DNA from: an uncultured Candidatus Saccharibacteria bacterium
GTDB lineage: Bacteria > Patescibacteriota > Minisyncoccia > Phycocordibacterales > UBA1006
Assembly (NCBI GenBank): GCA_964592365.1
Contig: CAZQDL010000001.1
Location: 146,989 to 210,988, forward strand
DNA: 64,000 bases
Direction of reading: 5' to 3'
This document shows, piece after piece, positions 21,093-38,060 of the stretch. Under the pieces are notes generated by a model. That model was not told the origin of the DNA and did no database searches. It saw nothing but the letters and a program-made list of their open reading frames with translations. Position 1 is the first letter of the stretch. Each line of letters opens with the position of its first letter. The position numbers and the translations under genes are program-made.

Positions 21093-21833
21093 ATGAAAAT
21101 ACTTGCTATCCCTACCAAACGAGTTTCTGTTGGTGATATTCTTTTTGATATATTGGCTTCATCACTTCCTGCTACTTTAGAAGAGGGAACTATTGTCTGC
21201 ATTAGTTCAAAGATAATTTCTCTGTGTGAAGGTCGAGTAAAAAAGATATCTGATGTTCAAAAAAAAGATGACTTGATTATTGAAGAATCCGATTATTATT
21301 TACCACGATCATATACACCTGGATCATATGTAATGCATACGATACGAGATGGTATATTGATGTCCTCAGCTGGTATTGATGCTTCAAATTCAGGAGAATA
21401 TTATGTACTTCTTCCAAATGATTCATATTCCTCAGCCAAGGAAATATATTTATGGCTAAAGAAACGATACGCGCTTTCTTCTGTTGGTGTTGTTATCACC
21501 GATTCTAGAAGTATGGCATTTAGAAGAGGTGTGGTTGGTATTTCTGTTGGTTACTATGGATTTTCAGCACTCAATGAGTATAGAGGGACAAGTGATCTCT
21601 TTGGAAGAAAAATGAAAATTTCACGTGCTAATGTTGTTGATAGTTTGGCATCAGCTTCAGTACTAGCTATGGGGGAGGGTAATGAATCAACACCCATCGC
21701 TCTTATTTCTGAATTTGATAAGGTGAATTTTGACATTCAAGAACCATTATCAGATTTTCATGTTCCATATAATGAGGATATCCAGGCACCATTTTTTCTT
21801 CATGCTCCATGGAAAAAAGGTGGAAAGAAATAG
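21093..21833 (+). CDS. CofE / F420-0:gamma-glutamyl ligase family protein
   Basis: GDILFDIL, CISSKIISLCEGR and SSAGIDASN motifs characteristic of PF01996. Confidence 0.55.
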   Translation: MKILAIPTKRVSVGDILFDILASSLPATLEEGTIVCISSKIISLCEGRVKKISDVQKKDDLIIEESDYYLPRSYTPGSYVMHTIRDGILMSSAGIDASNSGEYYVLLPNDSYSSAKEIYLWLKKRYALSSVGVVITDSRSMAFRRGVVGISVGYYGFSALNEYRGTSDLFGRKMKISRANVVDSLASASVLAMGEGNESTPIALISEFDKVNFDIQEPLSDFHVPYNEDIQAPFFLHAPWKKGGKK

Positions 21834-21856: not shown

Positions 21857-22717
21857 ATGTATGATGCATATATGAAATATATAGATACTCACTGCCATTT
21901 AAATTTTGCTGTCTATTCAGATGATATTGATCAGGTTATCCAGAAACTTATTGAAAGCAAGACGATGGCAATTGTTGTTGGAACACAATACGATACTTCA
22001 TTGCGTGCTGTTGAACTTGCAAAACAGTATGAACATATCTTTGCCATCGTTGGGCTACACCCTATTCACACCACAGCAAGTTTTCATGATGTAGAAGAGC
22101 TAGGGACTGAGGGTGGTGAATTTACTTCTCGAGGAGAATTGTTTGATATTGAAAAATATACCAATCTAGTTACTAGTTCTCCTAAAGTTGTTGGGATAGG
22201 GGAATGTGGTCTTGATTACTATCGAAATGTTCAAGAAACTAAAGATATACAAGAGTTAGCCTTTAGGAAGCAACTTGAATTATCAATATCTCTTGACCTA
22301 CCTGTAATGATTCATGTTCGACCTTCCCCAAAAAGTTATGATGCCTACTATGATGTTCTTGAGATTCTAAGGGAATATAAAATGAAGCATCCAAATCTCA
22401 GAGGTCAGGTTCACTTTTTTGCAGGTAATGTTCAGATAGCTCAAGAATTTATTGATCTTGGTTTTTATATTTCATTTACAGGAGTTATCACTTTTGCAAA
22501 AGAGTACGAAGATATTATCAAGAACATTCCACACGACAGAATTCTTTCTGAAACTGATGCTCCGTATGTAACACCTGTTCCATATAGAGGATCAAGAAAC
22601 GAGCCTCAATACGTTATTGAGGTAGTAAAGAAAATTGCAGAAATATGGAATACTACTGAATCATATGTTGCAGATCGCACGCTTGAAAATGCAAAAAAAC
22701 TTTACTTGTTAACATAA
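21857..22717 (+). CDS. tatD: TatD family hydrolase/DNase
   Basis: YIDTHCHLNF N-terminus, GECGLDY, and downstream His/Asp metal ligands. Confidence 0.85.
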   Translation: MYDAYMKYIDTHCHLNFAVYSDDIDQVIQKLIESKTMAIVVGTQYDTSLRAVELAKQYEHIFAIVGLHPIHTTASFHDVEELGTEGGEFTSRGELFDIEKYTNLVTSSPKVVGIGECGLDYYRNVQETKDIQELAFRKQLELSISLDLPVMIHVRPSPKSYDAYYDVLEILREYKMKHPNLRGQVHFFAGNVQIAQEFIDLGFYISFTGVITFAKEYEDIIKNIPHDRILSETDAPYVTPVPYRGSRNEPQYVIEVVKKIAEIWNTTESYVADRTLENAKKLYLLT

Positions 22718-22776
22718 AATTGAAATGGTTAGAAAAATTGTCATTTTATTTAGTTAATTGTTTAGTTAGTTTAGTG

Positions 22777-22803
22777 GCTCTTCTTTCGGGAAGAGCTTTT
22801 TCT
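22777..22803 (+). terminator. rho-independent terminator after tatD (inside the ORF-track 5' extension of rpsF)
   Basis: GCTCTTC-TTTCGG-GAAGAGC plus TTTTTCTTT. Confidence 0.6.
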
Positions 22804-22830
22804 TTACACAATAGAGAAAATAGGTACTAT

Positions 22831-23544
22831 ATGCTGAGTATGAATAACGAAAATACAAAAGGTTTCTCAAATGATGTTACATCATCAGAGCCACGTGTTT
22901 ACGAATTGGGATATCTTATTATGCCAAGCGTAGATGAGGGAGATCTTGGAACACAACGCGATGCGTTGGTGGCACTTATTACACGTTTTGAAGGAATTGT
23001 TATTGATGAAGGACAACCAGCATTAATTGATTTAGCTTATGAAATGGATAAATTAATTAACAACAAACGAGCAATCTTCAATCAAGCTTACTTTGGATGG
23101 ATTAAGTTCGATGTATCACCACGAGGTGTTGAAGCACTTACTAAAGAAATTGAAGCTGTACAATCTCTTATTAGATTTATTTTAGTTAAAACAATAAAGG
23201 AAAATACTCTTACATCAGAGCAACCTTATAAGTTAGCTAAAACATCAGGTGATGTTTCAAATGATTCAGAAGAAGATATTGAAATTGATGAAGTTGATGA
23301 TCTTACAATGATCGAAGGAATTGGTTCAGTTATCGCTGAAACGTTAGCAGACGCAGGAATTGAAACTTTTGAAGCATTAGCAGGATTAGGGAATGAAAAA
23401 ATCCAATCTCTTATCACTGATGTTAAAGGAGTTCATGATAGCTCAACATGGGCACAACAGGCTCAACTAGCAAGAGATGGAAAATTTGAAGAACTAAAAA
23501 ACCTTCAATCAGAACTCAAAGGAGGAGTAAAGGAAGAAGAGTAA
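22831..23544 (+). CDS. rpsF: 30S ribosomal protein S6 with a long C-terminal extension containing helix-hairpin-helix motifs (ORF track start 22720)
   Basis: The S6 core runs from YELGYLIMPSVDEG to AYFGWIKFDV...LIRFILVKT. The C-terminal roughly 100 aa carries HhH motifs (IEGIGSVIAETLADAGIETFEALAGL; DUF4332-like). The start was moved past the tatD terminator. Confidence 0.8.
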   Translation: MLSMNNENTKGFSNDVTSSEPRVYELGYLIMPSVDEGDLGTQRDALVALITRFEGIVIDEGQPALIDLAYEMDKLINNKRAIFNQAYFGWIKFDVSPRGVEALTKEIEAVQSLIRFILVKTIKENTLTSEQPYKLAKTSGDVSNDSEEDIEIDEVDDLTMIEGIGSVIAETLADAGIETFEALAGLGNEKIQSLITDVKGVHDSSTWAQQAQLARDGKFEELKNLQSELKGGVKEEE

Positions 23545-26122: not shown

Positions 26123-27835
26123 TCAATTTATTTCCACAAGTCCCAATCTAAGTTCATGGATTCCTCTGAATACAGAATAGTTAATTTCAACAATAATATC
26201 TATTGGTTTCTCTAAAGAAACTGAAGGGTAGTCATTAGGTGTTTTGAAAAATTGTATTGCTGAAATGATGGAACCATCGGGTTTCTTGAAACTTATCTTG
26301 AGATGATTTTGTTGTTTTCCAAAGCTTTCAATTGCGATAGGGGTAACTCCTGATATGAGAAACAATGGTTTTGGATTTCCCTGACCAAAAGGGGCAAGGG
26401 ATCGAATCTTTTTGTAGGTATCCATATTGATTTCATTGAGAGATATATGTGCATCAATGAATGTTTCATTTTCAACTACTTCTGGATATTTCTGTACATA
26501 GTCTATATATGCTTGTTCCATGCGTTCTTGTAGGAAATGGATTTCTTTTTTTAGCGTACTAAATCCTCCTGCTTCTGCATGTCCTCCGAATTGAATAAAT
26601 GCTGATTCTTCAGCAAGAGACATAAGTTTTACTAAATCAACTCCATGAGCTGATCGTGCAGAACCTTTTATCACTCCTTGTTCTTCACTCCACACAAATG
26701 CTGGCTTGTTATATTTTTCAGTAATTTTTGATGCAACTAGTCCTAAAATACCAGCTTGCCAGTTAGGTGAACCAATCACTATGATTGAGGCTTCAGGTCT
26801 ATTTTCCATACTAGCAGTTACTGATTTCATGGTAGAAGCTACTAACTTCTTTCGTTCATTATTCAGGGCATCTAAATGCTTTACTGCAGCATCTGCCTTT
26901 ACCTCATTTGATGCGATAAGGGTATGAAGAGCGTCCTCAGGGTGGCTCATACGTGATGCCGCATTGAGTTTAGGTGTAACAGAAAATGCGAGATCTTCTT
27001 CAGTTAGGTGATTTATGTTTAAACCAGCACTCCAGATAAGTTTCTTTAATCCTGGTCTTTTGGTTTTTTTGATTACCTTCATTCCGAAGTAAGCAAAAAT
27101 TCTATTTTCATTAATCAACGGAACCATATCAGATATTGTTGAAAGACCTACCATATCAAGTAACCACTTATCCCAACCCTCTTGAATATTCAAATTATCA
27201 CCATATTTTTTAATAAATGCTTGAACACATTTAAATATTACTCCGCAACCACAAAGCATATCATCAGGGTATGAGCATTGTTCTTGTTTGGGATTAATTA
27301 AAAGAAATGCTTCTGGAAGTATTTGTTTTCCATTAACGTCACATATTGGTTCGTGATGATCGGTGATGATAAGGTCAAGGTTTTGTTCTTTACACCATGT
27401 TGCAGCATTGTGACCGGTAATTCCAACATCTATAGTAATGATTAGAGTGGTTCCTGAAGCTTTAATTTTTTCTAAAGCATCTAGATGGATTCCATATCCT
27501 TCATCATGTCTGTGGGGAAGATATATGTTGTAATTAGTGTATCCAATTTTATCCAACAATGTTGCAAGGACAACACTTCCAGGAATACCATCAGCATCAT
27601 AATCAGCATAGATAGTGATGTTCTCGTTGGTATCGATAGCTTGTTTTAATCTAACAACCATCTCTTCTACATTATGCAGAAGAAAGGGATCATAGTTTGT
27701 TTCCCAAACAGGATTTAGGAATACCTCTGCATCTTCTTTTGATTGTATCCCTCTATTCATTAACAGTTGAGCAAGTAAAGGAGTATAGGTTAAAGCAAGT
27801 TCATGCTGAGGATCAATAGGAGGGTGTATGTTCAT
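26123..27835 (-). CDS. recJ: single-stranded-DNA-specific exonuclease RecJ (ORF track start 27910; MNIHPP at 27835 preferred)
   Basis: DHH domain (YADYDADG, ITDHHEP) and DHHA1 region. The 27910 start would place the terminator of the upstream gene inside the coding sequence. Confidence 0.85.
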   Translation of the reverse strand: MNIHPPIDPQHELALTYTPLLAQLLMNRGIQSKEDAEVFLNPVWETNYDPFLLHNVEEMVVRLKQAIDTNENITIYADYDADGIPGSVVLATLLDKIGYTNYNIYLPHRHDEGYGIHLDALEKIKASGTTLIITIDVGITGHNAATWCKEQNLDLIITDHHEPICDVNGKQILPEAFLLINPKQEQCSYPDDMLCGCGVIFKCVQAFIKKYGDNLNIQEGWDKWLLDMVGLSTISDMVPLINENRIFAYFGMKVIKKTKRPGLKKLIWSAGLNINHLTEEDLAFSVTPKLNAASRMSHPEDALHTLIASNEVKADAAVKHLDALNNERKKLVASTMKSVTASMENRPEASIIVIGSPNWQAGILGLVASKITEKYNKPAFVWSEEQGVIKGSARSAHGVDLVKLMSLAEESAFIQFGGHAEAGGFSTLKKEIHFLQERMEQAYIDYVQKYPEVVENETFIDAHISLNEINMDTYKKIRSLAPFGQGNPKPLFLISGVTPIAIESFGKQQNHLKISFKKPDGSIISAIQFFKTPNDYPSVSLEKPIDIIVEINYSVFRGIHELRLGLVEIN

Positions 27836-27864
27836 AGTATGAAGTATAGCATGGTGATGAAGGT

Positions 27865-27893
27865 CATAAAAAAAGCCGCTAAATAGCGGCTTT
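27865..27893 (-). terminator. rho-independent terminator of the 27879..28403 gene (minus strand)
   Basis: Read on the minus strand: AAAGCCGCT-ATTT-AGCGGCTTT followed by T7; overlaps that gene's stop codon. Confidence 0.65.
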
Positions 27894-28403
27894 GCTGAAT
27901 GTAAATTCATCTTTTAATTTGTTTACTGTCTCTTTGAATTCTTTTAATGATTCAAGAGCTTTGGAAGAATTATTTCCAAAGTCAAACAAGGTGATTTTTC
28001 TAAACAAATCTTTTAGTGCATGTAACACTAGGAGTTGTTCAGGACATCTGAAGCTACAGATTTTGTAGTTTTCTTTTTTGAGAAATTCAGTTTCATAGAA
28101 TACCCCTACTTCAAACATATTTTTCTTGAGATTATTTTTAATTAAATCAATTTCCGAATCTAATTCAAAAATATCATTTCTGATCTTCAAGAGTAATTTG
28201 TTGTTTTCATGAAAGGTACCTTCAATTTTTTTTGATTCCCTTGATCTTCTGTTATACAGTTGATCAATTGAATTAATTTTTCTCAGATACTGATCAAGTA
28301 AGTCGACATCGATTAGCTCGATTAACTTAATTGAATTTTCTTTAATTGTTTCGAACACGTGAGGTGTAAGTTTTTTTGTTGCTTTGGCTGCAGATTTTCT
28401 CAT
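27879..28403 (-). CDS. hypothetical coiled-coil protein (174 aa)
   Basis: Charged, K/E-rich ORF with its own terminator. Confidence 0.5.
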   Translation of the reverse strand: MRKSAAKATKKLTPHVFETIKENSIKLIELIDVDLLDQYLRKINSIDQLYNRRSRESKKIEGTFHENNKLLLKIRNDIFELDSEIDLIKNNLKKNMFEVGVFYETEFLKKENYKICSFRCPEQLLVLHALKDLFRKITLFDFGNNSSKALESLKEFKETVNKLKDEFTFSKAAI

Positions 28404-28479
28404 AAGTTATTTAGTTTTGGAAATTTCACTATACTATACATTTTATCATTATGTAAAGTTCCTAAAGTACTCTTGGTGG

Positions 28480-29898
28480 ATGAAATACTATATTACAAGT
28501 TACCTATTAGGTATTGTTACCCATTCTTTGTGGTTTGATATTGACTACACAAAGGTGATAGCCGTTGTATTTTTTCTTGTATTGGTATGTTCATTATTTT
28601 CTTTCAAAAGTATCTTAAGATGTGTTCTTTGTGCTTTGTTTTTTCTCTTTGGAATATATTTATTCCATTTAAAACTTCCAGATACTTTGAGTTTAGCTGA
28701 TGTTGTAGATACGAAGGTACAGATTCAAGGAAAAGTTGTTTCTGAGTATATAGATCAAGTAAATTTCAAGCAGTTTGTTGTTGATATTGGAGATAGCGAA
28801 AGGATACTTGTGAGGACAAACAGTTTAGCTTACGTTGAATATGGTGACACTCTTTTGTTATCAGGAAAGTTAATGCTTCCAGAATCTTTTGAAACAGATT
28901 CAGACAGGATATTTAATTACCCAATGTATCTTCAGAAGGATAACATTTTTTATCTTCTTTCTTATACAAGTATTCTTGATATTCAAACCAAAGAACTTTC
29001 ATTGAAAGATAGGTTTATACGAAGGTTGTATGAGAATAAGGAATTGTTGATTGAAAGGGCAAATATGAGATTACCTCAACCCCATGCGGGCCTATTAGCT
29101 GGTATTTTGTATGGCAAAAAGGGAAGTATGAATGCTGAGATTGATGAGCAGTTTAGAGCTGTTGGTCTAACGCATATTGTTGTTTTGTCAGGATATAATG
29201 TTAGCTTGGTAATACAACTATTTTTGATTGTATTAGGTTTTTTACCAATACGATTAAGATCAACATTAGCTTTTTTAGGTATTATTACCTTTGCTTTACT
29301 TGTAGGGGCAGGACCAACCGTGGTAAGAGCATCTATCATGGCAAGTCTCTTAGTGCTTTCAGGATTAGTGCATCGTGAATATGATGTCATAAGAGCTCTT
29401 ATCTTTGCTGGAGTTATTATGGTGTCACTAAATCCATATATTCTACTATTCGATATTTCTTTTCAATTATCTTTCTTGGCAACTTTTAGTCTCATCTATG
29501 TATCTCCGTTAATTGAAAGATATTTTCAAATTGTTCCAAATATTCTTGAGTTTCGTTCATCTTTAGTTGCTACTATTTCAGCACAAATCTTTGTCCTTCC
29601 TTTAATTTTTTATCAAATAGGAGAATTCTCGGTAATCTCAATTGTAGTTAATACCATTGTTTTATTTGCGGTTCCTTTTGCGATGCTTTTCGGAGCAATA
29701 TCTTCAATCCTTTCTCCTGGTTTCATTTTGGAAATATGTATATTTATCACATTTGTATTTCTTGAATATATTGTGAAATTAGTTTCATATTTTTCTCGAT
29801 ATCCACTGGTACATATTCCACCATTTCATATTTCAGTATTGATCCTAATATATCTTATCCTGTTTTTTGTTTTGTATGTGAAATCAGATAAGGTATGA
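28480..29898 (+). CDS. comEC: ComEC/Rec2 competence protein, membrane (DUF4131 + Competence) portion (ORF track start 28384 from TTG)
   Basis: LSGYNVSLV...LLVGAGPTVVRASIMASLLVL competence-domain motif and many TM helices. The ATG at 28480 has a GGTGGA Shine-Dalgarno. Confidence 0.7.
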   Translation: MKYYITSYLLGIVTHSLWFDIDYTKVIAVVFFLVLVCSLFSFKSILRCVLCALFFLFGIYLFHLKLPDTLSLADVVDTKVQIQGKVVSEYIDQVNFKQFVVDIGDSERILVRTNSLAYVEYGDTLLLSGKLMLPESFETDSDRIFNYPMYLQKDNIFYLLSYTSILDIQTKELSLKDRFIRRLYENKELLIERANMRLPQPHAGLLAGILYGKKGSMNAEIDEQFRAVGLTHIVVLSGYNVSLVIQLFLIVLGFLPIRLRSTLAFLGIITFALLVGAGPTVVRASIMASLLVLSGLVHREYDVIRALIFAGVIMVSLNPYILLFDISFQLSFLATFSLIYVSPLIERYFQIVPNILEFRSSLVATISAQIFVLPLIFYQIGEFSVISIVVNTIVLFAVPFAMLFGAISSILSPGFILEICIFITFVFLEYIVKLVSYFSRYPLVHIPPFHISVLILIYLILFFVLYVKSDKV

Positions 29899-29905
29899 TG
29901 TTTTC

Positions 29906-30481
29906 ATGAATTCAAAGAAGATATTGGTATTTGCTGGTCCTTCGGGGGTTGGAAAATCAACCCTCTGTTCTATGGTCCAAGAAACATATCCAGAAAATTT
30001 TTCTTTTGCTGTATCTGCGACCACTCGACCAAAAAGGGGTTTGGAAGTAGATGGAATAGATTATTATTTCCTTTCAGAAGATGAATTTAAAAAAAACATC
30101 AAAGAAGATGCTTTCATTGAATGGGAAGAAGTATATGCTGGAAGATATTATGGAACACTGAAATCAGAAATTACGAGAATCAGTGAACTTGGAAAAGTTA
30201 CCTTACTTGATATTGATGTGTTAGGTGCATTGAATATCAAGAGGAAATATGGAGATGAGGCTCACATTGTTTTCGTAAAACCAGAATCATTATCGGTTCT
30301 TAGACAACGTCTTGAAGATAGAGGAAGTGATAGTGAAGATGATATTGCTGTACGTGTAGAGCGTTTTGAAAAAGAACTTTCTTTTGAAAATGAGTTTGAT
30401 TCGGTAATTATTAATTACACAGGGAAATTGAAAGAGGCACAACTGAATGTTATCAATATTGTAGAAGAATATATTGTATAA
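29906..30481 (+). CDS. gmk: guanylate kinase
   Basis: GPSGVGKSTL P-loop, SATTRPKRGLEVDGIDYYFLSEDEF, EWEEVYAGRYYGT. Confidence 0.9.
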   Translation: MNSKKILVFAGPSGVGKSTLCSMVQETYPENFSFAVSATTRPKRGLEVDGIDYYFLSEDEFKKNIKEDAFIEWEEVYAGRYYGTLKSEITRISELGKVTLLDIDVLGALNIKRKYGDEAHIVFVKPESLSVLRQRLEDRGSDSEDDIAVRVERFEKELSFENEFDSVIINYTGKLKEAQLNVINIVEEYIV

Positions 30482-30486
30482 CATAG

Positions 30487-31365
30487 GTGGTGTTTTTATT
30501 TTTCACTCATATTGATATAGATACTCAAAGGGTGAAATACACTAATGAAAAATTTGTATATATTAGCCTCTTTACCTTCATTGCATCAGTTGTCCTTTTA
30601 TCTCATTCCTTTAATAAGCCAGAATTGATTATTGCTTTTCTTGATGTTGGGCAAGGAGATGCCATTTATATCCGTACTCCAAGAGGAAGAACGATGCTTA
30701 TCGATGGAGGGAAGAATAGAGAAGTGTTATATGAAATATCAAAAGTACATCCGTTCTATGACCGAAGTATAGACATTGTCGCATTAAGTCATCCTGATCT
30801 TGATCATATTGGAGGCTTAATACCAGTCATCGAACAATATGATGTTTTGTATGCTATGGATACTTTTTCAGATAAGGAGTCAGAAGAATATTCCTTATTC
30901 AAGGAAATATTGTCTGAACATATTTTCCATCCAGAATCTGGGTATATTATTGTTCTTGAAGACGGAATACATATTGAAGTACTTTGGCCACATTCGGGAA
31001 TTACTAATTTGAGTGATAATGAAGGATCGCTGGTTCTTCGACTTGAGTATCATGATACTAGTGTACTTCTCACTGGAGATATTGGATTTGAAACAGAAAC
31101 ACATCTTCTTGATATGTACGGAAGATCGTTAATGTCAGACATATTAAAAGTTGGACATCATGGATCAGGTTTTTCAACTTCAAAAGATTGGATTCAAAAA
31201 GTAGATCCAGATATATCAGTTCTTTCTTATGGCTGTGAAAATAGATACGGACATCCACATGAAAGAGTACATAATCTAATTCATGAATATGGAGAGGTAT
31301 ATGATACCTGTAAACAGGGAACAGTTATTCTATCCTCTGATGGAAAAAAATGGAAAAGAAAATAA
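30487..31365 (+). CDS. ComEC C-terminal metallo-beta-lactamase domain as a separate, TM-anchored ORF (GTG start in track)
   Basis: VGQGDAIYIRTPRGRTMLIDGG, HPDLDHIGG, KVGHHGS metallo-beta-lactamase motifs. N-terminal TM. Confidence 0.7.
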   Translation: MVFLFFTHIDIDTQRVKYTNEKFVYISLFTFIASVVLLSHSFNKPELIIAFLDVGQGDAIYIRTPRGRTMLIDGGKNREVLYEISKVHPFYDRSIDIVALSHPDLDHIGGLIPVIEQYDVLYAMDTFSDKESEEYSLFKEILSEHIFHPESGYIIVLEDGIHIEVLWPHSGITNLSDNEGSLVLRLEYHDTSVLLTGDIGFETETHLLDMYGRSLMSDILKVGHHGSGFSTSKDWIQKVDPDISVLSYGCENRYGHPHERVHNLIHEYGEVYDTCKQGTVILSSDGKKWKRK

Positions 31366-33709: not shown

Positions 33710-34303
33710 ATGGGTGAGCAAACTATAATTTTTATTGGACGTTCTGGTTCTGGAAAGGGAACCCAAATAGAACTACTCAAAGAGTATTTTGCAAAACATA
33801 CTCCTGAATCTTCAGTTTTTCATTTTGAATCTGGGGATCATTTTAGAAATTTCATTAAATCAGATGGTTATACCAGTGAACTAATGAGAAATATCATTGG
33901 TGAAGGAAAACTTGCACCAGACTTTATCACTGGCTGGTTACTTGTAGATGCCTTAGTGAAGAATTTTAAACGTGGACAAACATTAATTCTTGATGGATTT
34001 CCTCGTACACAAACACAGGCACTGACACTTGATTCAGCTATGGAATACTATGATAGAAAAAATATTAAAGTAATTCATATTGATGTTTCAGAGGATGAAG
34101 TACGACGACGTATGGTTTCTCGAGGACGTGCCGATGATGCTGTTGCTGAAGTGGTTGAACGACGAATAACTTGGTACAACGAAAATGTAATTCCTACTAT
34201 TAACTATCTACGCATGAAACCTGCTTATGAGGTTATTGATATTAATGGAGAACAAGATATTAAAGAAATTCAGGAAGAAATTATTCAACGTCTAGGATTA
34301 TAA
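33710..34303 (+). CDS. adk: adenylate kinase (short form)
   Basis: GRSGSGKGTQ P-loop, LILDGFPRT, arginine-rich lid RRMVSRGRADD. Confidence 0.8.
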   Translation: MGEQTIIFIGRSGSGKGTQIELLKEYFAKHTPESSVFHFESGDHFRNFIKSDGYTSELMRNIIGEGKLAPDFITGWLLVDALVKNFKRGQTLILDGFPRTQTQALTLDSAMEYYDRKNIKVIHIDVSEDEVRRRMVSRGRADDAVAEVVERRITWYNENVIPTINYLRMKPAYEVIDINGEQDIKEIQEEIIQRLGL

Positions 34304-34314
34304 TTATCAATACT

Positions 34315-35004
34315 ATGAGAGCATACAAAGAAACAATTGTTATATCAGTAGGTGGTTCACTTTTGGTTCCAGACCGGGTGGATGTTGATTTTATCAGTCG
34401 CTTAAAGGATATGGTTCGTTTCTTTATCAATGATGGATACCAAATTGCTCTTATCATTGGAGGAGGAAAAACTTCACGTAGATATGGTGAAGTTGCCTCT
34501 TCTTTTTCACATATTTCAAATGAAGATTTAGATTGGATTGGGATAAAAAGTATACATTTGAATGCAGAATTGATTAAACGATGTTATGGAGATCTTGATA
34601 TTCATCCAGAGGTTATTTTGAAAAGAGAAGATATTTCAAAAGTTACTGAATCTTTAGTAATTGTAGGGGCTTGGAAACCAGGTCACTCAAGTGATTACAA
34701 CGCAGTTACAATGGCAGAGTCATTCGGAGGAAAAAAGGTTATTAATTTCTCAAATATATCTTATGTCTATGATATGGATCCAGTAAAGTATCCAGATGCA
34801 AAAATTATTGAAACATTAACTTGGGACAAATACTTAACTCTTATCCCAACTAAGTGGGAAGCAAATCTTTCAGCACCTTTTGATCCAGTTGCTTCTCGTA
34901 AAGCACAAGAGCTTGGAATGACCGTTGCTATACTAGGTTCATCATTAGAAAATTTAAAAAACTATCTAGACGGGAATCCTTTTGAAGGAAGTATTATCTC
35001 ATAG
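34315..35004 (+). CDS. pyrH: amino-acid-kinase-fold UMP kinase, archaeal type (putative)
   Basis: [10 protein letters not shown]...[14 protein letters not shown]...[12 protein letters not shown]...YVYDMDP pattern of archaeal-type uridylate kinase. Confidence 0.55.
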
Positions 35005-35013
35005 ATTGTCTTG

Positions 35014-35022
35014 TGATATACT
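35014..35022 (+). promoter_or_regulatory. extended -10 promoter (TGaTATACT) 8 nt upstream of the pilin 1 ATG
   Basis: tgTGATATACTTCCttgtATG. Confidence 0.4.
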
Positions 35023-35029
35023 TCCTTGT

Positions 35030-35494
35030 ATGAAACCAAAAGGATTCACCTTAATTGAATTATTGGTGGTAGTAGCTATTATTGGAATATTGGCAACCAT
35101 AGTACTTGCATCCTTAGGAAGTGCACGGGAAAAGGCACAGGTAGCTCGAGCAAGAGCTGAAATGAGAGAAATATATACCCTCATGGATACTGCTCGCATT
35201 TTTGAAGGTACAACATTAATGGGAGTAACAGGTTCAGGGTGTACTCATTGTAGTAATGCCTGGAATACCTCAATTGATAGGATAGTAACTAAAGCTGATC
35301 CTACCGCTACAGATGGTTCACGATTCTATACTGATGTTTGGGGTAGCCCATATTATCTTGATGAAAACGAAGGTGAAATTACCACAAACCTTTGTAGAGT
35401 AGATGGATTCAGGTCTCGTGGACCTGATAAGGCATTAAGTACCACAGACGATATCTCTTATCCGATACCTTTTTCACTACCACAATGTCTCTAA
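35030..35494 (+). CDS. type IV pilin / pseudopilin-like protein 1 (ORF track start 34982)
   Basis: MKPK|[23 protein letters not shown] class-III prepilin signal; variable Cys-containing C-terminal domain. Confidence 0.8.
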
Positions 35495-36054
35495 CATCAA
35501 AAACAAAAGGATTTACTCTCATTGAACTACTCGTAGTAGTAGCCATCATTGGAATATTGGCAACCGTGGTGTTGGCATCACTTGGAAGTGCATGGGAAAA
35601 GGCGCGAGAGGCAAGAAAGTTAACTGACTTGAATCAAATAAGGAATGCTTTTGAGTTATATTACCTAGATAATGGAAGCTACCCACTTGCAACTACAGGA
35701 GGCTGGTTTGCATATTGTATTGGTAAGAGTTCAAGTGAAACTTGTTGGAATAATGAACTAAATGGAAATGATGCTTTAAATGCTGCTTTAGAAGATTATC
35801 TACCTCTTGATTACTTCGCTTCTTTAAATGGAGCTGATGCTTCAGCCTTCGTGTTACACAGAGGTGGAACGAGTAATAATCTTGGTTGTGCTGGTGCAGT
35901 TAGATTTGGAAATCAAATTGTTTGGATGCCAAAGGATAACGGAACGGTACCAAATAATTCTTGCCCTGGCGAGAGTATTCGTACCGGTTGTGGGTCAGGA
36001 ATATATCAACAGACGGTATATCATAATAATCACTGTGCATTGTTATTAGACTAA
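35485..36054 (+). CDS. type IV pilin / pseudopilin-like protein 2
   Basis: MSLTSKTK|[23 protein letters not shown]; overlaps pilin 1 by 10 nt (translational coupling). Confidence 0.8.
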
Positions 36055-36107: not shown

Positions 36108-36872
36108 ATGGCCGTTACGATAAAAACAGAAGAACAAATTTCAGCATTACGTGAAGCAGGAAAAATCCATGCACGTATTTTAGATACGTTGGTGAACATG
36201 GTGAAACCTGGAGTTTCTGCAATGGATTTGAATTCTGAAGCAGAACGTTTGGTTCGTGAGGCAGGTGCTGAACCTTCTTTTCTCGGATATCAACCTGATA
36301 GGAGTTATCCTAAATATCCTGCAACACTATGTGTGTCTATTAATGAAGTTATCGTTCATGGAATTCCAACAAGCGATATGATTATCAAAGACGGTGATTT
36401 GGTTTCTGTTGACTTAGGTCTTAAATATAAAGGGGTATTTACTGATAGTGCAAGAACAATTGCTGTGGGGAATGTTTCAAAAGAAGCAAAAGCATTGCTT
36501 CACGATACTATTGAAGCACTTCATCGTGGAATTGAAGCTGCACGACCAGGAAATACTGTAGGGGATATTGGGTATGCAATTCAATCTTTCAATAACAAAA
36601 GATATGGAAATGTAAGAGAGCTTGCAGGTCATGGGGTTGGTTTAGCCGTACATGAAGATCCCTATGTTCCAAATTATGGAAAACCTAAACAGGGAATTGC
36701 ATTAAAACCAGGTATGGTGTTGGCAATTGAACCTATGTTTAATTTAGGTGGTTCTGAAGTTGTCTTTCATGATGATAAGTATACGGTTACTACTCGTGAT
36801 GGTTCTTTGTCTGTTCATGTTGAACATACTATTTTGATCACTCAAGATGGACCTGAAATCCTCACCTTATAG
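36108..36872 (+). CDS. map: methionine aminopeptidase type I
   Basis: Pita-bread fold metal ligands in conserved context (DLVSVDLG..., HGVGLAVHEDP, LAIEPM). Confidence 0.9.
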   Translation: MAVTIKTEEQISALREAGKIHARILDTLVNMVKPGVSAMDLNSEAERLVREAGAEPSFLGYQPDRSYPKYPATLCVSINEVIVHGIPTSDMIIKDGDLVSVDLGLKYKGVFTDSARTIAVGNVSKEAKALLHDTIEALHRGIEAARPGNTVGDIGYAIQSFNNKRYGNVRELAGHGVGLAVHEDPYVPNYGKPKQGIALKPGMVLAIEPMFNLGGSEVVFHDDKYTVTTRDGSLSVHVEHTILITQDGPEILTL

Positions 36873-36876
36873 TTTA

Positions 36877-36885
36877 TGATATACT
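36877..36885 (+). promoter_or_regulatory. extended -10 promoter (TGaTATACT) 9 nt upstream of the pilin 3 ATG
   Basis: taTGATATACTTatctcatATG; begins 5 nt after the map stop codon. Confidence 0.4.
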
Positions 36886-36893
36886 TATCTCAT

Positions 36894-37499
36894 ATGAAAA
36901 CCAAAGGATTCACTTTAATTGAATTACTGGTAGTAGTAGCTATTATCGGAATATTGGCAACGGTGGTGTTAGCCTCACTTGGTTCAGCTCGAAGTAGAGC
37001 TCGTGATGCAAAAAGGATTGCAGATATGACTAATATACGAACCGCTCTTGAACTTTATTTTCTTGATAATAATAGTTATCCAAGTACTGGTTCATTAAAT
37101 ACAGTATATATGGATACCACTTGTCTAGGTCCAGCAGCAACTTCACCAGACATAAAAAATTCAAATTGGATACCCAACTTAGTTTCAGGTGGGTATATGG
37201 GATCATTGCCACAGAATTTGGGCGAAGCAGGGTACGATTATGCAAGAAGTTTAGCATCTCGTAATACTTGTTATATGTATGCAAGTGATGGAAATTTTTA
37301 TATCTTGTCAGCTTGGGGAGTTGTTGAAAATGGTCCCATAAGCACCACTCATTCGCTATATTCTAGAGTAGGTTTCAGAGAGGGAAATTATGGAGATCAT
37401 CTTTATTACTGTAATCACCCTAATATTGGAAACACCATTAGTGGTGATTATTATCGATATTCATATACCCTGACGAACATAACAACCTGTACGTGGTAG
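36894..37499 (+). CDS. type IV pilin / pseudopilin-like protein 3 (ORF track start 36876)
   Basis: MKTK|[23 protein letters not shown]. The promoter lies inside the track's 5' extension. Confidence 0.8.
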   Translation: MKTKGFTLIELLVVVAIIGILATVVLASLGSARSRARDAKRIADMTNIRTALELYFLDNNSYPSTGSLNTVYMDTTCLGPAATSPDIKNSNWIPNLVSGGYMGSLPQNLGEAGYDYARSLASRNTCYMYASDGNFYILSAWGVVENGPISTTHSLYSRVGFREGNYGDHLYYCNHPNIGNTISGDYYRYSYTLTNITTCTW

Positions 37500-37506
37500 T
37501 GTGTAA

Positions 37507-37540
37507 AATAAAACAAAGCTTAAGCTTTGTTTTATTTTTG
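37507..37540 (+). terminator. rho-independent terminator after pilin 3
   Basis: Perfect 13-bp palindrome TAAAACAAAGCTT|AAGCTTTGTTTTA followed by TTTTT. Confidence 0.7.
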
Positions 37541-37547
37541 TTATACT
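37539..37547 (+). promoter_or_regulatory. extended -10 promoter (TGtTATACT) 7 nt upstream of the pilin 4 ATG (leaderless)
   Basis: tTGTTATACTaacaatATG. Confidence 0.4.
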
Positions 37548-37553
37548 AACAAT

Positions 37554-38060
37554 ATGAAATTAAAAGGATTCACCTTAATTGAACTACTTGTAGTAGTAGC
37601 TATCATTGGAATATTGGCAACCGTGGTGTTAGCATCCTTAGGAAGTGCACGGGAAAAGGCAAAATTCACTAAGCTCGTTGCAAACATTAATCAGCTTGAA
37701 AAAGAATTGCATACTAATAATCCGGGGGTATGGTGGACTGAGCTACCAGGTAATATTATTCCAGCTAGTTCAAATGTTAATGTAACTAAATTTAATTTTG
37801 ATGGATACACCTTTGCATACGATAATGATGCGGATATCAGGCCTAATGCTGATTGTATGGCTAGTGAAGCTGAAATGGTAAGAGGTGTTAGTATTATCGT
37901 ACTTGGACTAACAAGTGCTGATTTTATTACTCTTAATGACTATATTGATCAAGGTGAAAAGAATTATACTACCACCAACAAGAACCTTTGCGGAAAGCTA
38001 TTATGGTACAGCCCTTCAGCTTCAGTAATGTATAGAGTGGCTAATAATTCCTTTGAATAA
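37554..38060 (+). CDS. type IV pilin / pseudopilin-like protein 4 (ORF track start 37527)
   Basis: MKLK|[23 protein letters not shown]. Confidence 0.8.

What the first reader, a model, noticed from the sequence alone, without database searches (positions are those of the whole stretch)
28384..31365. ComEC split into separate membrane-domain and beta-lactamase-domain genes with guanylate kinase inserted between them
The competence-channel protein ComEC is normally one polypeptide (DUF4131 - competence TM domain - metallo-beta-lactamase). Here the TM/competence portion (28480..29898) and a TM-anchored beta-lactamase-domain protein (30487..31365) are separate ORFs. An unrelated housekeeping gene, gmk (29906..30481), sits precisely between them, all on the same strand with intergenic gaps of 7 and 5 nt. 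This is either a domain-fission event with gene insertion or an ancestral two-part organisation.
Basis: partly seen in the sequence, partly recalled or inferred. Interest (0 to 1): 0.5.

Follow-up and report, generated by a model that had tools for sequence, protein, structure and literature searches.

The report
Two-gene ComEC with embedded guanylate kinase
In this Patescibacteria (CPR) genome the DNA-uptake protein ComEC is encoded as two genes, a channel half and a membrane-anchored nuclease half, with a guanylate kinase gene between them; the split is normal for this whole bacterial group, and only the kinase in the middle is special to this clade.

Summary
ORF 28480-29898 carries the ComEC OB fold (DUF4131) and Competence channel. 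ORF 29906-30481 is a bona fide guanylate kinase. ORF 30487-31365 (more likely starting at 30532) is one TM helix plus a ComEC-type metallo-beta-lactamase nuclease. The two halves align collinearly with fused ComECs. On the solved 801-aa ComEC the break falls in the cytoplasmic TM10-TM11 connection.

It is not an artefact: an independent assembly of the same species repeats the layout. It is also not a local event. Of 33 CPR-labelled species representatives, none is fused and 25 have comEC-N upstream of the MBL gene on the same strand. Twenty-nine of 47 non-CPR or unlabelled loci are fused.

The gap between the halves is a variable slot. It is empty in 9 of those 25 loci, most often holds a reverse-strand Fe/Mn-SOD-like gene, and sometimes holds other genes. 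In the window's clade it always holds a same-strand NMP kinase: gmk in seven species, archaeal-type (d)CMP kinase in two.

So the split predates gmk. Méheust et al. 2019 already reported that the ComEC-MBL fusion is absent from CPR. The retained partner gene and the kinase slot appear undescribed. Interest is moderate.

The parts
28480..29898 (+). comEC-N: N-terminal TM helices, OB fold (DUF4131) and Competence channel domain, roughly TM1-TM10 of fused ComEC. 472 aa; the mechanical ORF opens at TTG 28384.
   Evidence: Pfam PF13567 and PF03772. TIGR00361 positions 71-359. Maps to residues 144-452 (envelope to 489) of PDB 30bt_A ComEC. Identical 472-aa gene call in JGI contig L086.
29906..30481 (+). 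gmk, guanylate kinase, 191 aa, in the slot between the two ComEC halves.
   Evidence: TIGR03263 at 185.8 bits, above the 160.45 cutoff, covering 2-178 of 180; Pfam Guanylate_kin E 9e-45. Same position in L085, L086, L102, L104, L105, L106 and L107.
30487..31365 (+). comEC-C: stand-alone TM-anchored ComEC-type metallo-beta-lactamase nuclease (TM11 plus the BLACT domain). The ORF opens at GTG 30487; the conserved start is probably GTG 30532 (277 aa).
   Evidence: TIGR00361 positions 428-663 of 663. PDB 9ic4 E 5e-38; 30bt_A residues 514-792. AF2 model pLDDT 91.4. Foldseek top hit is the ComEC BLACT domain, TM 0.82. Start-codon comparison.
30544..30612 (+). N-terminal signal-anchor TM helix of comEC-C (aa 20-42), the counterpart of TM11 of fused ComEC.
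   Evidence: The AF2 model has a single helix at 20-42 before the MBL domain. It aligns with 30bt_A residues ~514-531, just before the soluble domain 532-801 (PMC13539106). A hydrophobic helix is present in all 30 aligned homologues.
30790..30807 (+). Codons for the ComEC-type metal-binding motif H102-P-D104-L-D106-H107.
   Evidence: P103, D104, D106 and H107 are invariant and H102 is at least 90% conserved in alignment A1. The same H-x-D-x-D-H form is described for the ComEC BLACT domain in PMC12455585.
31360..31382 (.). Hairpin between the convergent comEC-C and rpmB genes; a likely bidirectional terminator marking the 3' end of the three-gene unit.
   Evidence: Terminator-like site, 10-bp stem, found by the consensus scan. 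This is a pattern match only.
27879..28403 (-). Conserved hypothetical gene (174 aa) transcribed divergently from comEC-N. Belongs to the conserved neighbourhood; function unknown.
   Evidence: No significant Pfam hit (one marginal V-SNARE match, E 0.009, below the cutoff) and no NCBIfam hit. A reverse-strand gene of 153-174 aa without domain hits sits at the same position in L086, L102, L104 and L105.
26123..27910 (-). recJ (ssDNA exonuclease), a conserved upstream neighbour of comEC-N.
   Evidence: Pfam DHH, DHHA1 and RecJ_OB. recJ lies upstream of comEC-N in L004 and L102-L107.

Best explanation
This is the normal Patescibacteria (CPR) form of ComEC, encoded as two genes.

comEC-N makes the N-terminal TM helices, the extracytoplasmic OB fold and the ssDNA channel, roughly TM1-TM10 of fused ComEC. 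comEC-C makes one signal-anchor helix (the counterpart of TM11) followed by the extracytoplasmic metallo-beta-lactamase nuclease. The break lies in the short cytoplasmic TM10-TM11 connection, so both new termini are cytoplasmic and neither half needs a new targeting signal.

Inferred mechanism: the halves reassemble non-covalently in the membrane. TM11 packs at the periphery of the channel domain, and the nuclease docks on the OB fold at the channel mouth. There it degrades the non-transported strand while the other strand is imported.

The split is old and phylum-wide. The space between the two genes has become a permissive slot for other genes. In the window's Pacebacteria-like clade that slot holds a same-strand NMP kinase (gmk here), tightly spaced and probably co-transcribed as comEC-N / gmk / comEC-C. 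gmk arrived after the split and did not cause it.

Shown: domain identities, collinearity, the position of the break, the phylogenetic distribution, the slot contents, and conservation of the nuclease active site.

Inferred: physical reassembly, co-transcription, and function in DNA uptake.
For: Identity of the halves:
- Pfam and NCBIfam matches.
- Only ComEC chains hit in the PDB.
- AF2 model at pLDDT 91.4 with a single helix at 20-42 followed by an MBL fold.
- Foldseek top hit 9ic4, the ComEC BLACT domain, E 1.4e-25, TM 0.82.

Collinearity and breakpoint:
- The concatenated halves align end to end with eight fused ComECs with no missing segment.
- N maps to 30bt_A 144-452 (envelope to 489). 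C, residues 26-290, maps to 514-792. The soluble BLACT domain is 532-801, and a cytoplasmic helix lies between the peripheral TM10 and TM11 (PMC13539106).

Functional constraint:
- FLDVGQGD, HPDxDH, TGD, GHHGS and the His of YGHPH are conserved across 30 stand-alone homologues at 37-66% identity.

Distribution:
- All of the top 120 relatives of the MBL half are 249-308 aa stand-alone proteins.
- All of the top 120 relatives of the N half are 333-574 aa and lack an MBL domain.
- Of 33 CPR-labelled species representatives, 0 are fused and 25 are split with N upstream on the same strand. Of 47 other loci, 29 are fused.

Slot contents:
- Reverse-strand SOD-like gene in 15 loci, VTT/DedA in 2, unknown in 6, empty or abutting in 9 CPR-labelled loci (11 in all).
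- gmk in the window, L085, L086, L102, L104, L105, L106 and L107; (d)CMP kinase in L001 and L103.

The same-species independent assembly L086 has the identical layout.
Against: - No direct evidence that the two polypeptides associate.
- In the commonest CPR arrangement a reverse-strand gene separates the halves, so they are separate transcription units. In at least two CPR genomes (L016, L065) no comEC-N lies within about 7 kb of the MBL gene. Tight co-expression is therefore not obligatory.
- Published biochemistry shows the isolated nuclease domain is less active than when it is linked to the OB fold or in full-length ComEC (PMC12455585, PMC13539106). A split could reduce efficiency unless docking compensates.
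- The promoter and terminator scans are uninformative for operon structure.
- Taxon labels are as deposited and may be imprecise; many 'Saccharibacteria' labels come from automated MAG submissions.
Confidence: 0.75

Rival explanations
1. Functional coupling. The NMP kinase sits between the ComEC halves because DNA uptake feeds nucleotide salvage. dNMPs released from scavenged DNA by the MBL nuclease, RecJ or TatD are re-phosphorylated by gmk or cmk, and co-transcription ties the kinase to the uptake machine. This adds to the best explanation and does not replace it.
For: - The slot holds an NMP kinase in every one of the 9 species-level loci of the clade, down to 39-41% comEC-N identity. All are on the same strand and tightly spaced.
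- Two unrelated kinase families alternate in the same slot, gmk (TIGR03263) and archaeal-type (d)CMP kinase (TIGR02173). They share only the P-loop and are interleaved on the MBL tree.
- The neighbourhood also encodes TatD DNase, SSB, RecJ, adk, pyrH and four type IV pilin-like genes.
- CPR bacteria generally lack de novo nucleotide synthesis, and ComEC has been proposed as a DNA-scavenging route (PMC6744442).
Against: - Other CPR clades have unrelated genes in the same slot (SOD-like, VTT/DedA, malic enzyme, unknowns) or nothing.
- The whole region is a housekeeping and ribosomal-protein cluster in a very small genome, where mixed operons are common.
- Tn-seq in a cultivated Saccharibacterium found the com genes dispensable for growth, which argues against competence as the main nucleotide source (PMC10633639).
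- The gmk/cmk interleaving rests on a crude NJ tree.
- Whether these genomes have other gmk or cmk copies is unknown.
Confidence: 0.3
2. Independent nuclease. The stand-alone MBL protein no longer works with the channel half. It acts as a free membrane-anchored extracellular DNase (functionally like pneumococcal EndA) that degrades environmental DNA for nutrition or strand processing.
For: - The halves are separated by a reverse-strand gene in many CPR genomes and are unlinked in some.
- The isolated BLACT domain has nuclease activity in vitro (PMC12455585, PMC13539106).
- TM11 is peripheral and mobile in the cryo-EM structure.
- Stand-alone ComEC-like MBL proteins unlinked to comEC also exist in Clostridia and Bacilli.
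Against: - In 25 of the 27 CPR-labelled loci with enough upstream sequence to judge, the MBL gene lies directly downstream of comEC-N on the same strand.
- The TM11 counterpart is retained in all members.
- Both halves are retained together across the phylum.
- The isolated domain binds DNA poorly without the OB fold (PMC12455585).
Confidence: 0.2
3. Ancestral two-part state. Patescibacteria retain a primitive unfused arrangement, and fused ComEC in other phyla arose by gene fusion, so no fission occurred in CPR.
For: - An ancestral-state reconstruction inferred a Competence-only ancestor with multiple gains and losses of Lactamase_B (PMC6299819).
- Abutting, collinear gene pairs are what a pre-fusion state would look like.
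- In the NJ tree the fused Chloroflexota sequences nest among CPR abutting forms.
Against: - The fused form is found in many distant phyla: Bacillota, Chloroflexota, Acidobacteriota, Gemmatimonadota, Bacteroidota, Myxococcota and Latescibacterota. A single fission at the CPR base is more parsimonious than many fusions at the identical loop.
- Deep nodes of the NJ tree are unreliable.
Confidence: 0.2
4. A recent local event or artefact: gmk inserted into an intact comEC and broke it, or a frameshift or misassembly created apparent fragments, so one or both halves are pseudogenes.
For: None beyond the superficial appearance of a gene sitting inside another gene.
Against: - The layout is identical in an independent assembly (L086) and in relatives down to 39% identity.
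- The split exists without gmk across the phylum.
- Catalytic motifs and the TM anchor are conserved.
- The stops are clean and each half has its own start.
Confidence: 0.02

Closest known systems
Canonical single-chain ComEC/Rec2 (TIGR00361), e.g. Neomoorella carbonis ComEC (PDB 30bt, cryo-EM, PMC13539106), B. subtilis ComEC and L. pneumophila ComEC
   Same: The same three modules in the same order: OB fold/DUF4131, Competence channel, then TM11 plus an MBL nuclease with the H-x-D-x-D-H motif. The two halves together cover the whole protein collinearly.
   Different: Here they are two polypeptides from two genes, cut in the cytoplasmic TM10-TM11 connection, with another gene between them. Neither half alone reaches the TIGR00361 cutoff (70.5 and 129.5 bits against 190).
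CPR ComEC family without the MBL fusion (Méheust et al. 2019, Nat Commun, PMC6744442: fam000603; 'fusion essentially absent in CPR')
   Same: The same phenomenon on the channel half: CPR ComEC proteins lack a fused MBL domain. Searches confirm this.
   Different: The passage retrieved reports absence of the fusion and does not mention a partner gene. Here the MBL domain is shown to persist as a separate TM-anchored gene immediately downstream, in conserved synteny, with a variable inter-half slot.
DC-profile (DUF4131+Competence) ComEC proteins of Pimentel & Zhang 2018 (PMC6299819), and MBL-less ComECs such as that of H. pylori
   Same: The channel half has the DC domain profile.
   Different: In those cases the nuclease domain is treated as lost, and other nucleases (e.g. 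EndA in S. pneumoniae, PMC12455585) may substitute. Here it is retained in trans.
comEC-N / reverse-strand Fe/Mn-SOD-like / MBL arrangement of Paceibacteria-type genomes (loci L002, L004, L009, L010, L012, L018, L020-L022, L025, L026, L075)
   Same: The same split halves, the same flanking synteny (recJ upstream; rpmB, M50 peptidase, rpsL and rpsG downstream), and the same slot.
   Different: The slot gene is unrelated and on the opposite strand, so the halves are separate transcription units. In the window's clade the slot gene is a same-strand NMP kinase.

Membership tests
ComEC/Rec2 (TIGR00361; Pfam architecture DUF4131-Competence-Lactamase_B) | Competence transmembrane channel domain (PF03772) | tested here: met
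   E 4.2e-45, profile 2-267 of 270, in ORF 28480-29898.
ComEC/Rec2 (TIGR00361; Pfam architecture DUF4131-Competence-Lactamase_B) | N-terminal DUF4131 / OB-fold module | tested here: met
   PF13567 E 1.5e-12, 48 bits against a 31.6 cutoff.
ComEC/Rec2 (TIGR00361; Pfam architecture DUF4131-Competence-Lactamase_B) | C-terminal ComEC-type MBL nuclease domain, preceded by a TM helix and carrying the H-x-D-x-D-H metal site | tested here: met
   TIGR00361 positions 428-663. PDB ComEC hits at E 5e-38 and 1e-35. HPDLDH conserved. Foldseek top hit is ComEC BLACT. The domain lies on a separate polypeptide.
ComEC/Rec2 (TIGR00361; Pfam architecture DUF4131-Competence-Lactamase_B) | All modules on one polypeptide that scores above the equivalog cutoff (190.05 bits) | tested here: not met
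   Two ORFs score 70.5 and 129.5 bits separately, with gmk between them.
ComEC/Rec2 (TIGR00361; Pfam architecture DUF4131-Competence-Lactamase_B) | Mediates ssDNA import during natural transformation | not testable with these tools
   Function is inferred from homology only. comEC is required for transformation in a cultivated Saccharibacterium (PMC10633639).
Unfused CPR-type ComEC (Méheust 2019) | Channel protein without a fused MBL domain, in a Patescibacteria genome | tested here: met
   The N half and its top 120 relatives lack Lactamase_B. EF-Tu places the window in Patescibacteria. 0 of 33 CPR-labelled loci are fused.
Guanylate kinase (TIGR03263 / PF00625) | Full-length match above the curated equivalog cutoff, with a P-loop | tested here: met
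   185.8 bits against 160.45, profile 2-178 of 180; GPSGVGKST P-loop.
Metallo-beta-lactamase fold superfamily (PF00753) | alpha-beta/beta-alpha MBL fold with conserved metal ligands | tested here: met
   PF00753, 46.6 bits against 22.7. AF2 pLDDT 91.4. More than 300 MBL-fold PDB hits.

The most novel reading that the evidence does not exclude
The comEC-N / NMP-kinase / comEC-C unit is a dedicated DNA-scavenging operon. In this Patescibacteria clade the uptake channel, its nuclease and an interchangeable nucleoside-monophosphate kinase (gmk or archaeal-type cmk) are co-expressed, so that nucleotides released from imported or degraded DNA are channelled straight into (d)NDP pools. That would be direct genomic evidence for the long-proposed idea that CPR bacteria use competence machinery to feed nucleotide salvage. 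In addition, the natural split would show that ComEC's nuclease can work in trans, docked non-covalently.
Probability: 0.25. Interest if true: 0.6.

Novelty: new variant of a known kind. Interest (0 to 1): 0.4.

Why it matters
**It corrects a likely misreading.** CPR ComECs are catalogued as lacking the nuclease domain. In fact the domain is retained as a separate, TM-anchored, strongly conserved gene next door. Surveys that score ComEC domain architecture on single proteins, using the DC versus DCL profiles, will undercount nuclease-competent systems.

**It is a natural split-protein experiment.** The split falls exactly at the TM10-TM11 cytoplasmic connection of a machine whose first full-length structures have just appeared. 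It predicts that TM11 plus the MBL domain can dock in trans through the OB-fold contact. That can be tested in model organisms by splitting comEC at this loop.

**It gives a testable lead on nucleotide salvage.** The clade-specific kinase slot, with gmk or cmk always on the same strand, bears on whether DNA uptake supplies nucleotides in these auxotrophic ultra-small bacteria. Tn-seq in one Saccharibacterium has left that question open.

None of this overturns current understanding, so interest is moderate.

Tried and rejected
- **Viral-contig scan with the MBL half:** no relatives found, so there is no sign of a phage or mobile-element origin.
- **Metagenome-contig scan with the single protein:** nothing closer than about 46% identity, and it did not recover the known same-species contig. 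It added only a few SOD-slot and abutting examples.
- **Promoter and terminator consensus scan:** fewer promoter-like sites than in shuffles, so it is uninformative for operon structure. Only the hairpin between comEC-C and rpmB is worth noting.
- **Genome-contig scan:** The 80 loci are a sample biased towards the best tblastn scores, not a census, and the window's own genome was not among them.
- **First mbl HMM:** it picked up weak (20-39 bit) hydrophobic matches in the channel proteins. These were ignored by applying a cutoff of 100 bits (raised to 150 bits in the re-analysis).
- **NJ tree:** useful for shallow clades (the kinase and SOD clades) but rejected as evidence for the direction of the deep event, fission versus fusion.
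- **Is the cmk-like slot gene a diverged gmk?** Rejected. It shares only 16 of 34 residues, around the P-loop, and passes the TIGR02173 cutoff.
- **Does the window encode that cmk elsewhere?** tblastn found only P-loop-level hits at gmk and adk within the 64 kb. The rest of the genome is unseen.


Full report
**1. What is in the window**

Three same-strand ORFs occupy 28384-31365.

- **ORF 1** (ATG 28480-29898, 472 aa) matches Pfam Competence (E 4e-45) and DUF4131 (E 1.5e-12), and positions 71-359 of the single-chain ComEC model TIGR00361. The mechanical ORF opens at TTG 28384, but that overlaps the divergent gene 27879-28403.
- **ORF 2** (29906-30481, 191 aa) is a full-length guanylate kinase: TIGR03263 at 185.8 bits, above the 160.45 cutoff.
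- **ORF 3** (30487-31365, 292 aa) matches Lactamase_B and positions 428-663 of 663 of TIGR00361 (129.5 bits).

The junction DNA shows clean TGA and TAA stops and no frameshift, with gaps of 7 and 5 nt.

One refinement concerns the ORF 3 start. The 66%-identical relative L085 has no start codon aligned with GTG 30487. Its only in-frame start aligns with window GTG 30532. The real protein is therefore probably 277 aa with a 50-nt spacer, matching the 36-57 nt seen in relatives.

**2. The downstream ORF is a ComEC nuclease domain, not a generic MBL hydrolase**

- A sequence search of the PDB returns only ComEC chains. These are the crystal structure of the ComEC beta-lactamase-like domain (9ic4, E 5e-38) and full-length ComEC 30bt_A (E 1e-35, query residues 26-290 on chain residues 514-792).
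- An AlphaFold2 model built on 30 homologues is confident (pLDDT 91.4). It shows one long N-terminal helix (residues 20-42) followed by an MBL fold.
- Foldseek ranks the ComEC domain first (E 1.4e-25, TM 0.82). The next hit is the pneumococcal esterase Pce at 6.7e-14. The depositors reported Pce as the closest structural homologue of that domain (PMC12455585).
- The metal-binding motif is the ComEC form H-x-D-x-D-H (HPDLDH, residues 102-107). The motifs FLDVGQGD, TGD, GHHGS and the His of YGHPH are conserved across 30 stand-alone homologues that are only 37-66% identical. The protein is under selection as an active enzyme.

**3. The two halves are contiguous pieces of ComEC**

The concatenated halves align end to end with eight fused ComECs from six phyla, with no missing segment. 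The junction falls in a short basic loop between two hydrophobic helices.

On the solved 801-aa ComEC, the N half maps to residues 144-452 (envelope to 489) and the C half to 514-792. The cryo-EM paper defines the soluble nuclease domain as residues 532-801. It describes a short cytoplasmic helix between TM10 and TM11, says both helices are peripheral to the channel, notes that TM11 is mobile, and reports that the nuclease domain is flexibly linked and positioned by a contact with the OB fold (PMC13539106).

The stand-alone protein is therefore TM11 plus the nuclease, and the cut lies in the cytoplasmic TM10-TM11 connection. Basic residues flank the cut on both sides: ...YVKSDKV at the C-terminus of the N half and ...QRVKYTNEK before the helix of the C half. 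This is consistent with both new termini being cytoplasmic, although that topology is an inference.

**4. It is not an artefact and not a local event**

An independent JGI assembly of the same species (L086) has the identical three-gene layout.

- All of the top 120 database relatives of the MBL half are stand-alone proteins of 249-308 aa.
- All of the top 120 relatives of the N half are 333-574 aa and lack an MBL domain.
- EF-Tu places the window in Patescibacteria. The nearest named relatives are 'Patescibacteria group' (89%), 'Ca. Pacebacteria' (87%) and 'Minisyncoccia' (87%).

I classified 80 species-representative loci from a genome-collection scan:

| Group | n | Fused | Split, abutting | Split, with insert | MBL alone, upstream too short to judge | MBL alone, ≥5 kb upstream seen |
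|---|---|---|---|---|---|---|
| CPR-labelled | 33 | 0 | 9 | 16 | 6 | 2 |
| Other or unlabelled | 47 | 29 | 1 | 3 | 5 | 9 |

In every split locus comEC-N lies upstream of the MBL gene on the same strand. The fused proteins are 608-967 aa (some truncated at contig ends) and come from Chloroflexota, Bacillota, Acidobacteriota, Gemmatimonadota, Bacteroidota and others.

**5. The space between the halves is a variable slot**

The flanking synteny is conserved: recJ and a small hypothetical gene upstream; rpmB(-), an M50 peptidase, rpsL and rpsG downstream. What lies between the halves differs:

| Slot content | Loci |
|---|---|
| Nothing: halves overlap or abut (-44 to +40 nt; larger apparent overlaps in two loci reflect over-extended ORF starts) | 11 (9 CPR-labelled) |
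| Reverse-strand Fe/Mn-SOD-like gene (one locus also has a malic enzyme) | 15 |
| VTT/DedA-like gene | 2 |
| Unannotatable genes or short gaps | 6 |
| Same-strand NMP kinase (window's clade) | see below |

The split therefore predates any particular occupant, and gmk did not cause it.

**6. In the window's clade the slot always holds an NMP kinase**

- **Guanylate kinase** (TIGR03263, above cutoff where tested): window, L086 (same species), L085, L102, L104, L105 ('Ca. Pacebacteria' GCA_022763365), L106 and L107. These span comEC-N identities down to 39-41%.
- **Archaeal-type (d)CMP kinase** (TIGR02173, above cutoff): L001 and L103.

The two kinase families share only the P-loop. All are on the same strand. 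Spacers from comEC-N to the kinase are -47 to 160 nt, and from the kinase to the MBL gene 36-57 nt.

In a neighbour-joining tree of MBL domains this clade is monophyletic, with gmk and cmk loci interleaved, and it is sister to the SOD-slot clade. Deep nodes of that tree are not reliable.

**7. Mechanism**

Shown here:
- two genes encode collinear, conserved pieces of ComEC;
- the nuclease half keeps its active site and its membrane anchor;
- the pieces stay adjacent and co-oriented in most of the phylum.

Inferred:
- the halves reassemble in the membrane, with TM11 at the periphery of the channel domain and the nuclease docked on the OB fold at the channel mouth;
- there the nuclease degrades the non-imported strand;
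- in this clade comEC-N, gmk and comEC-C are co-transcribed, ending at the hairpin shared with the convergent rpmB.

Published biochemistry shows that the nuclease domain is more active when linked to the OB fold or in full-length ComEC (PMC12455585, PMC13539106). A split system must therefore rely on non-covalent docking. That is the main untested step.

**8. Rivals**

1. **Functional coupling to nucleotide salvage.** The kinase may be there because DNA uptake feeds salvage. In favour: the kinase is conserved in the slot, two unrelated kinases substitute for one another, and the neighbourhood also holds TatD, SSB, RecJ, adk, pyrH and four pilin-like genes. Against: other clades carry unrelated slot genes, the region is a housekeeping cluster, and Tn-seq showed the com genes are dispensable for growth of a Saccharibacterium (PMC10633639).
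2. **Independent nuclease.** The MBL protein may act alone as a membrane-anchored DNase. In favour: reverse-strand separators and a few unlinked cases. Against: the strongly conserved adjacency and the retained TM11.
3. **Direction of the deep event.** A single fission at the CPR base is more parsimonious, given how many phyla have the fused form. However, Pimentel & Zhang (PMC6299819) inferred multiple gains of the MBL domain, so an ancestral two-part state is not excluded.
4. **Artefact, pseudogene or recent gmk insertion.** This is refuted.

**9. Comparison with what is known, and novelty**

Méheust et al. [quoted passage not shown] ComEC reviews and structure papers speak of orthologues that 'lack' the nuclease domain.

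In the searchable literature I found no description of any of the following:
- the retained, separately encoded TM11-plus-nuclease partner;
- its conserved synteny;
- the variable slot;
- the NMP-kinase occupancy.

Annotation pipelines do, however, already label many of these stand-alone proteins 'ComEC'.

I therefore rate this as a new variant of a known kind. The split itself is ordinary for the phylum. The kinase-in-slot operon and the precise breakpoint on the new structures are modestly new and testable. Interest 0.4.

Noticed in passing
window 34982-35494, 35485-36054, 36876-37499, 37527-38060: Four ORFs with the type IV pilin N-terminal methylation motif (PF07963), interleaved with methionine aminopeptidase (36108-36872). 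They lie 3.6-6.7 kb downstream of the ComEC genes and are possible competence or T4P pilins.
   Followed up: partly
window 33710-34303 and 34315-35004: Adenylate kinase and an archaeal-type UMP kinase (TIGR02076, 145.6 bits, just under its cutoff) lie 2.3 kb downstream. gmk, adk and pyrH therefore sit within about 5 kb. adk and pyrH are in the same position in L106.
   Followed up: partly
L001 3472-4098 and L103 5506-6090: In two relatives the slot between the ComEC halves holds an archaeal-type (d)CMP kinase (TIGR02173, above cutoff) in place of gmk. The two cmk proteins are 63% identical to each other, while the flanking ComEC halves are only 41-44% identical.
   Followed up: yes
L002, L004, L009, L010, L012, L014, L018, L020-L022, L025, L026, L075, L088, L089 (between comEC-N and the MBL gene): A reverse-strand gene of about 196-204 aa for an Fe/Mn-SOD-like protein (strong Sod_Fe_C, weak or absent Sod_Fe_N) is the commonest occupant of the inter-half slot in Paceibacteria-type genomes. 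Why a SOD-like gene sits there is unexplained.
   Followed up: partly
L034 5395-7837 (Armatimonadota-labelled MAG): A non-CPR-labelled genome has abutting split halves (26-nt overlap). Its MBL domain clusters with fused proteins in the tree, so this is either an independent fission or a frameshift or binning error.
   Followed up: no
L045, L053, L067, L068, L073, L074, L084, L094, L096, L097, L099, L100: A separate clade of stand-alone ComEC-like MBL proteins in Bacilli, Clostridia and Tenericutes-labelled genomes, with no Competence-domain gene within the flanks seen (up to about 7 kb). These may be paralogues of the ComEC nuclease domain.
   Followed up: no
L016, L065 (also L039): Two CPR-labelled genomes (L016, L065), and the unlabelled L039 that clusters with them, have the MBL half but no comEC-N within about 7 kb on either side. 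The halves can therefore become unlinked.
   Followed up: no
window 22720-23544: A ribosomal protein S6 domain fused to a helix-hairpin-helix (HHH_5) domain, followed by ssb. The same fusion is present in L103, L104 and L106.
   Followed up: no
window 21093-21833 and 21857-22717: An F420-0:gamma-glutamyl ligase-family gene, unexpected in a minimal CPR genome, sits next to a TatD-family DNase.
   Followed up: no
window 27879-28403 (-): A 174-aa protein with no significant Pfam or NCBIfam match is transcribed divergently from comEC-N. A gene of 153-174 aa without domain hits sits at the same position in L086, L102, L104 and L105. Function unknown.
   Followed up: no
window 30487-30532: The start codon of the MBL gene is ambiguous. 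The ORF opens at GTG 30487, but the conserved start in relative L085 aligns with GTG 30532. A T-rich stretch (TTTTTAT) in this interval is conserved in the relatives' spacers.
   Followed up: yes
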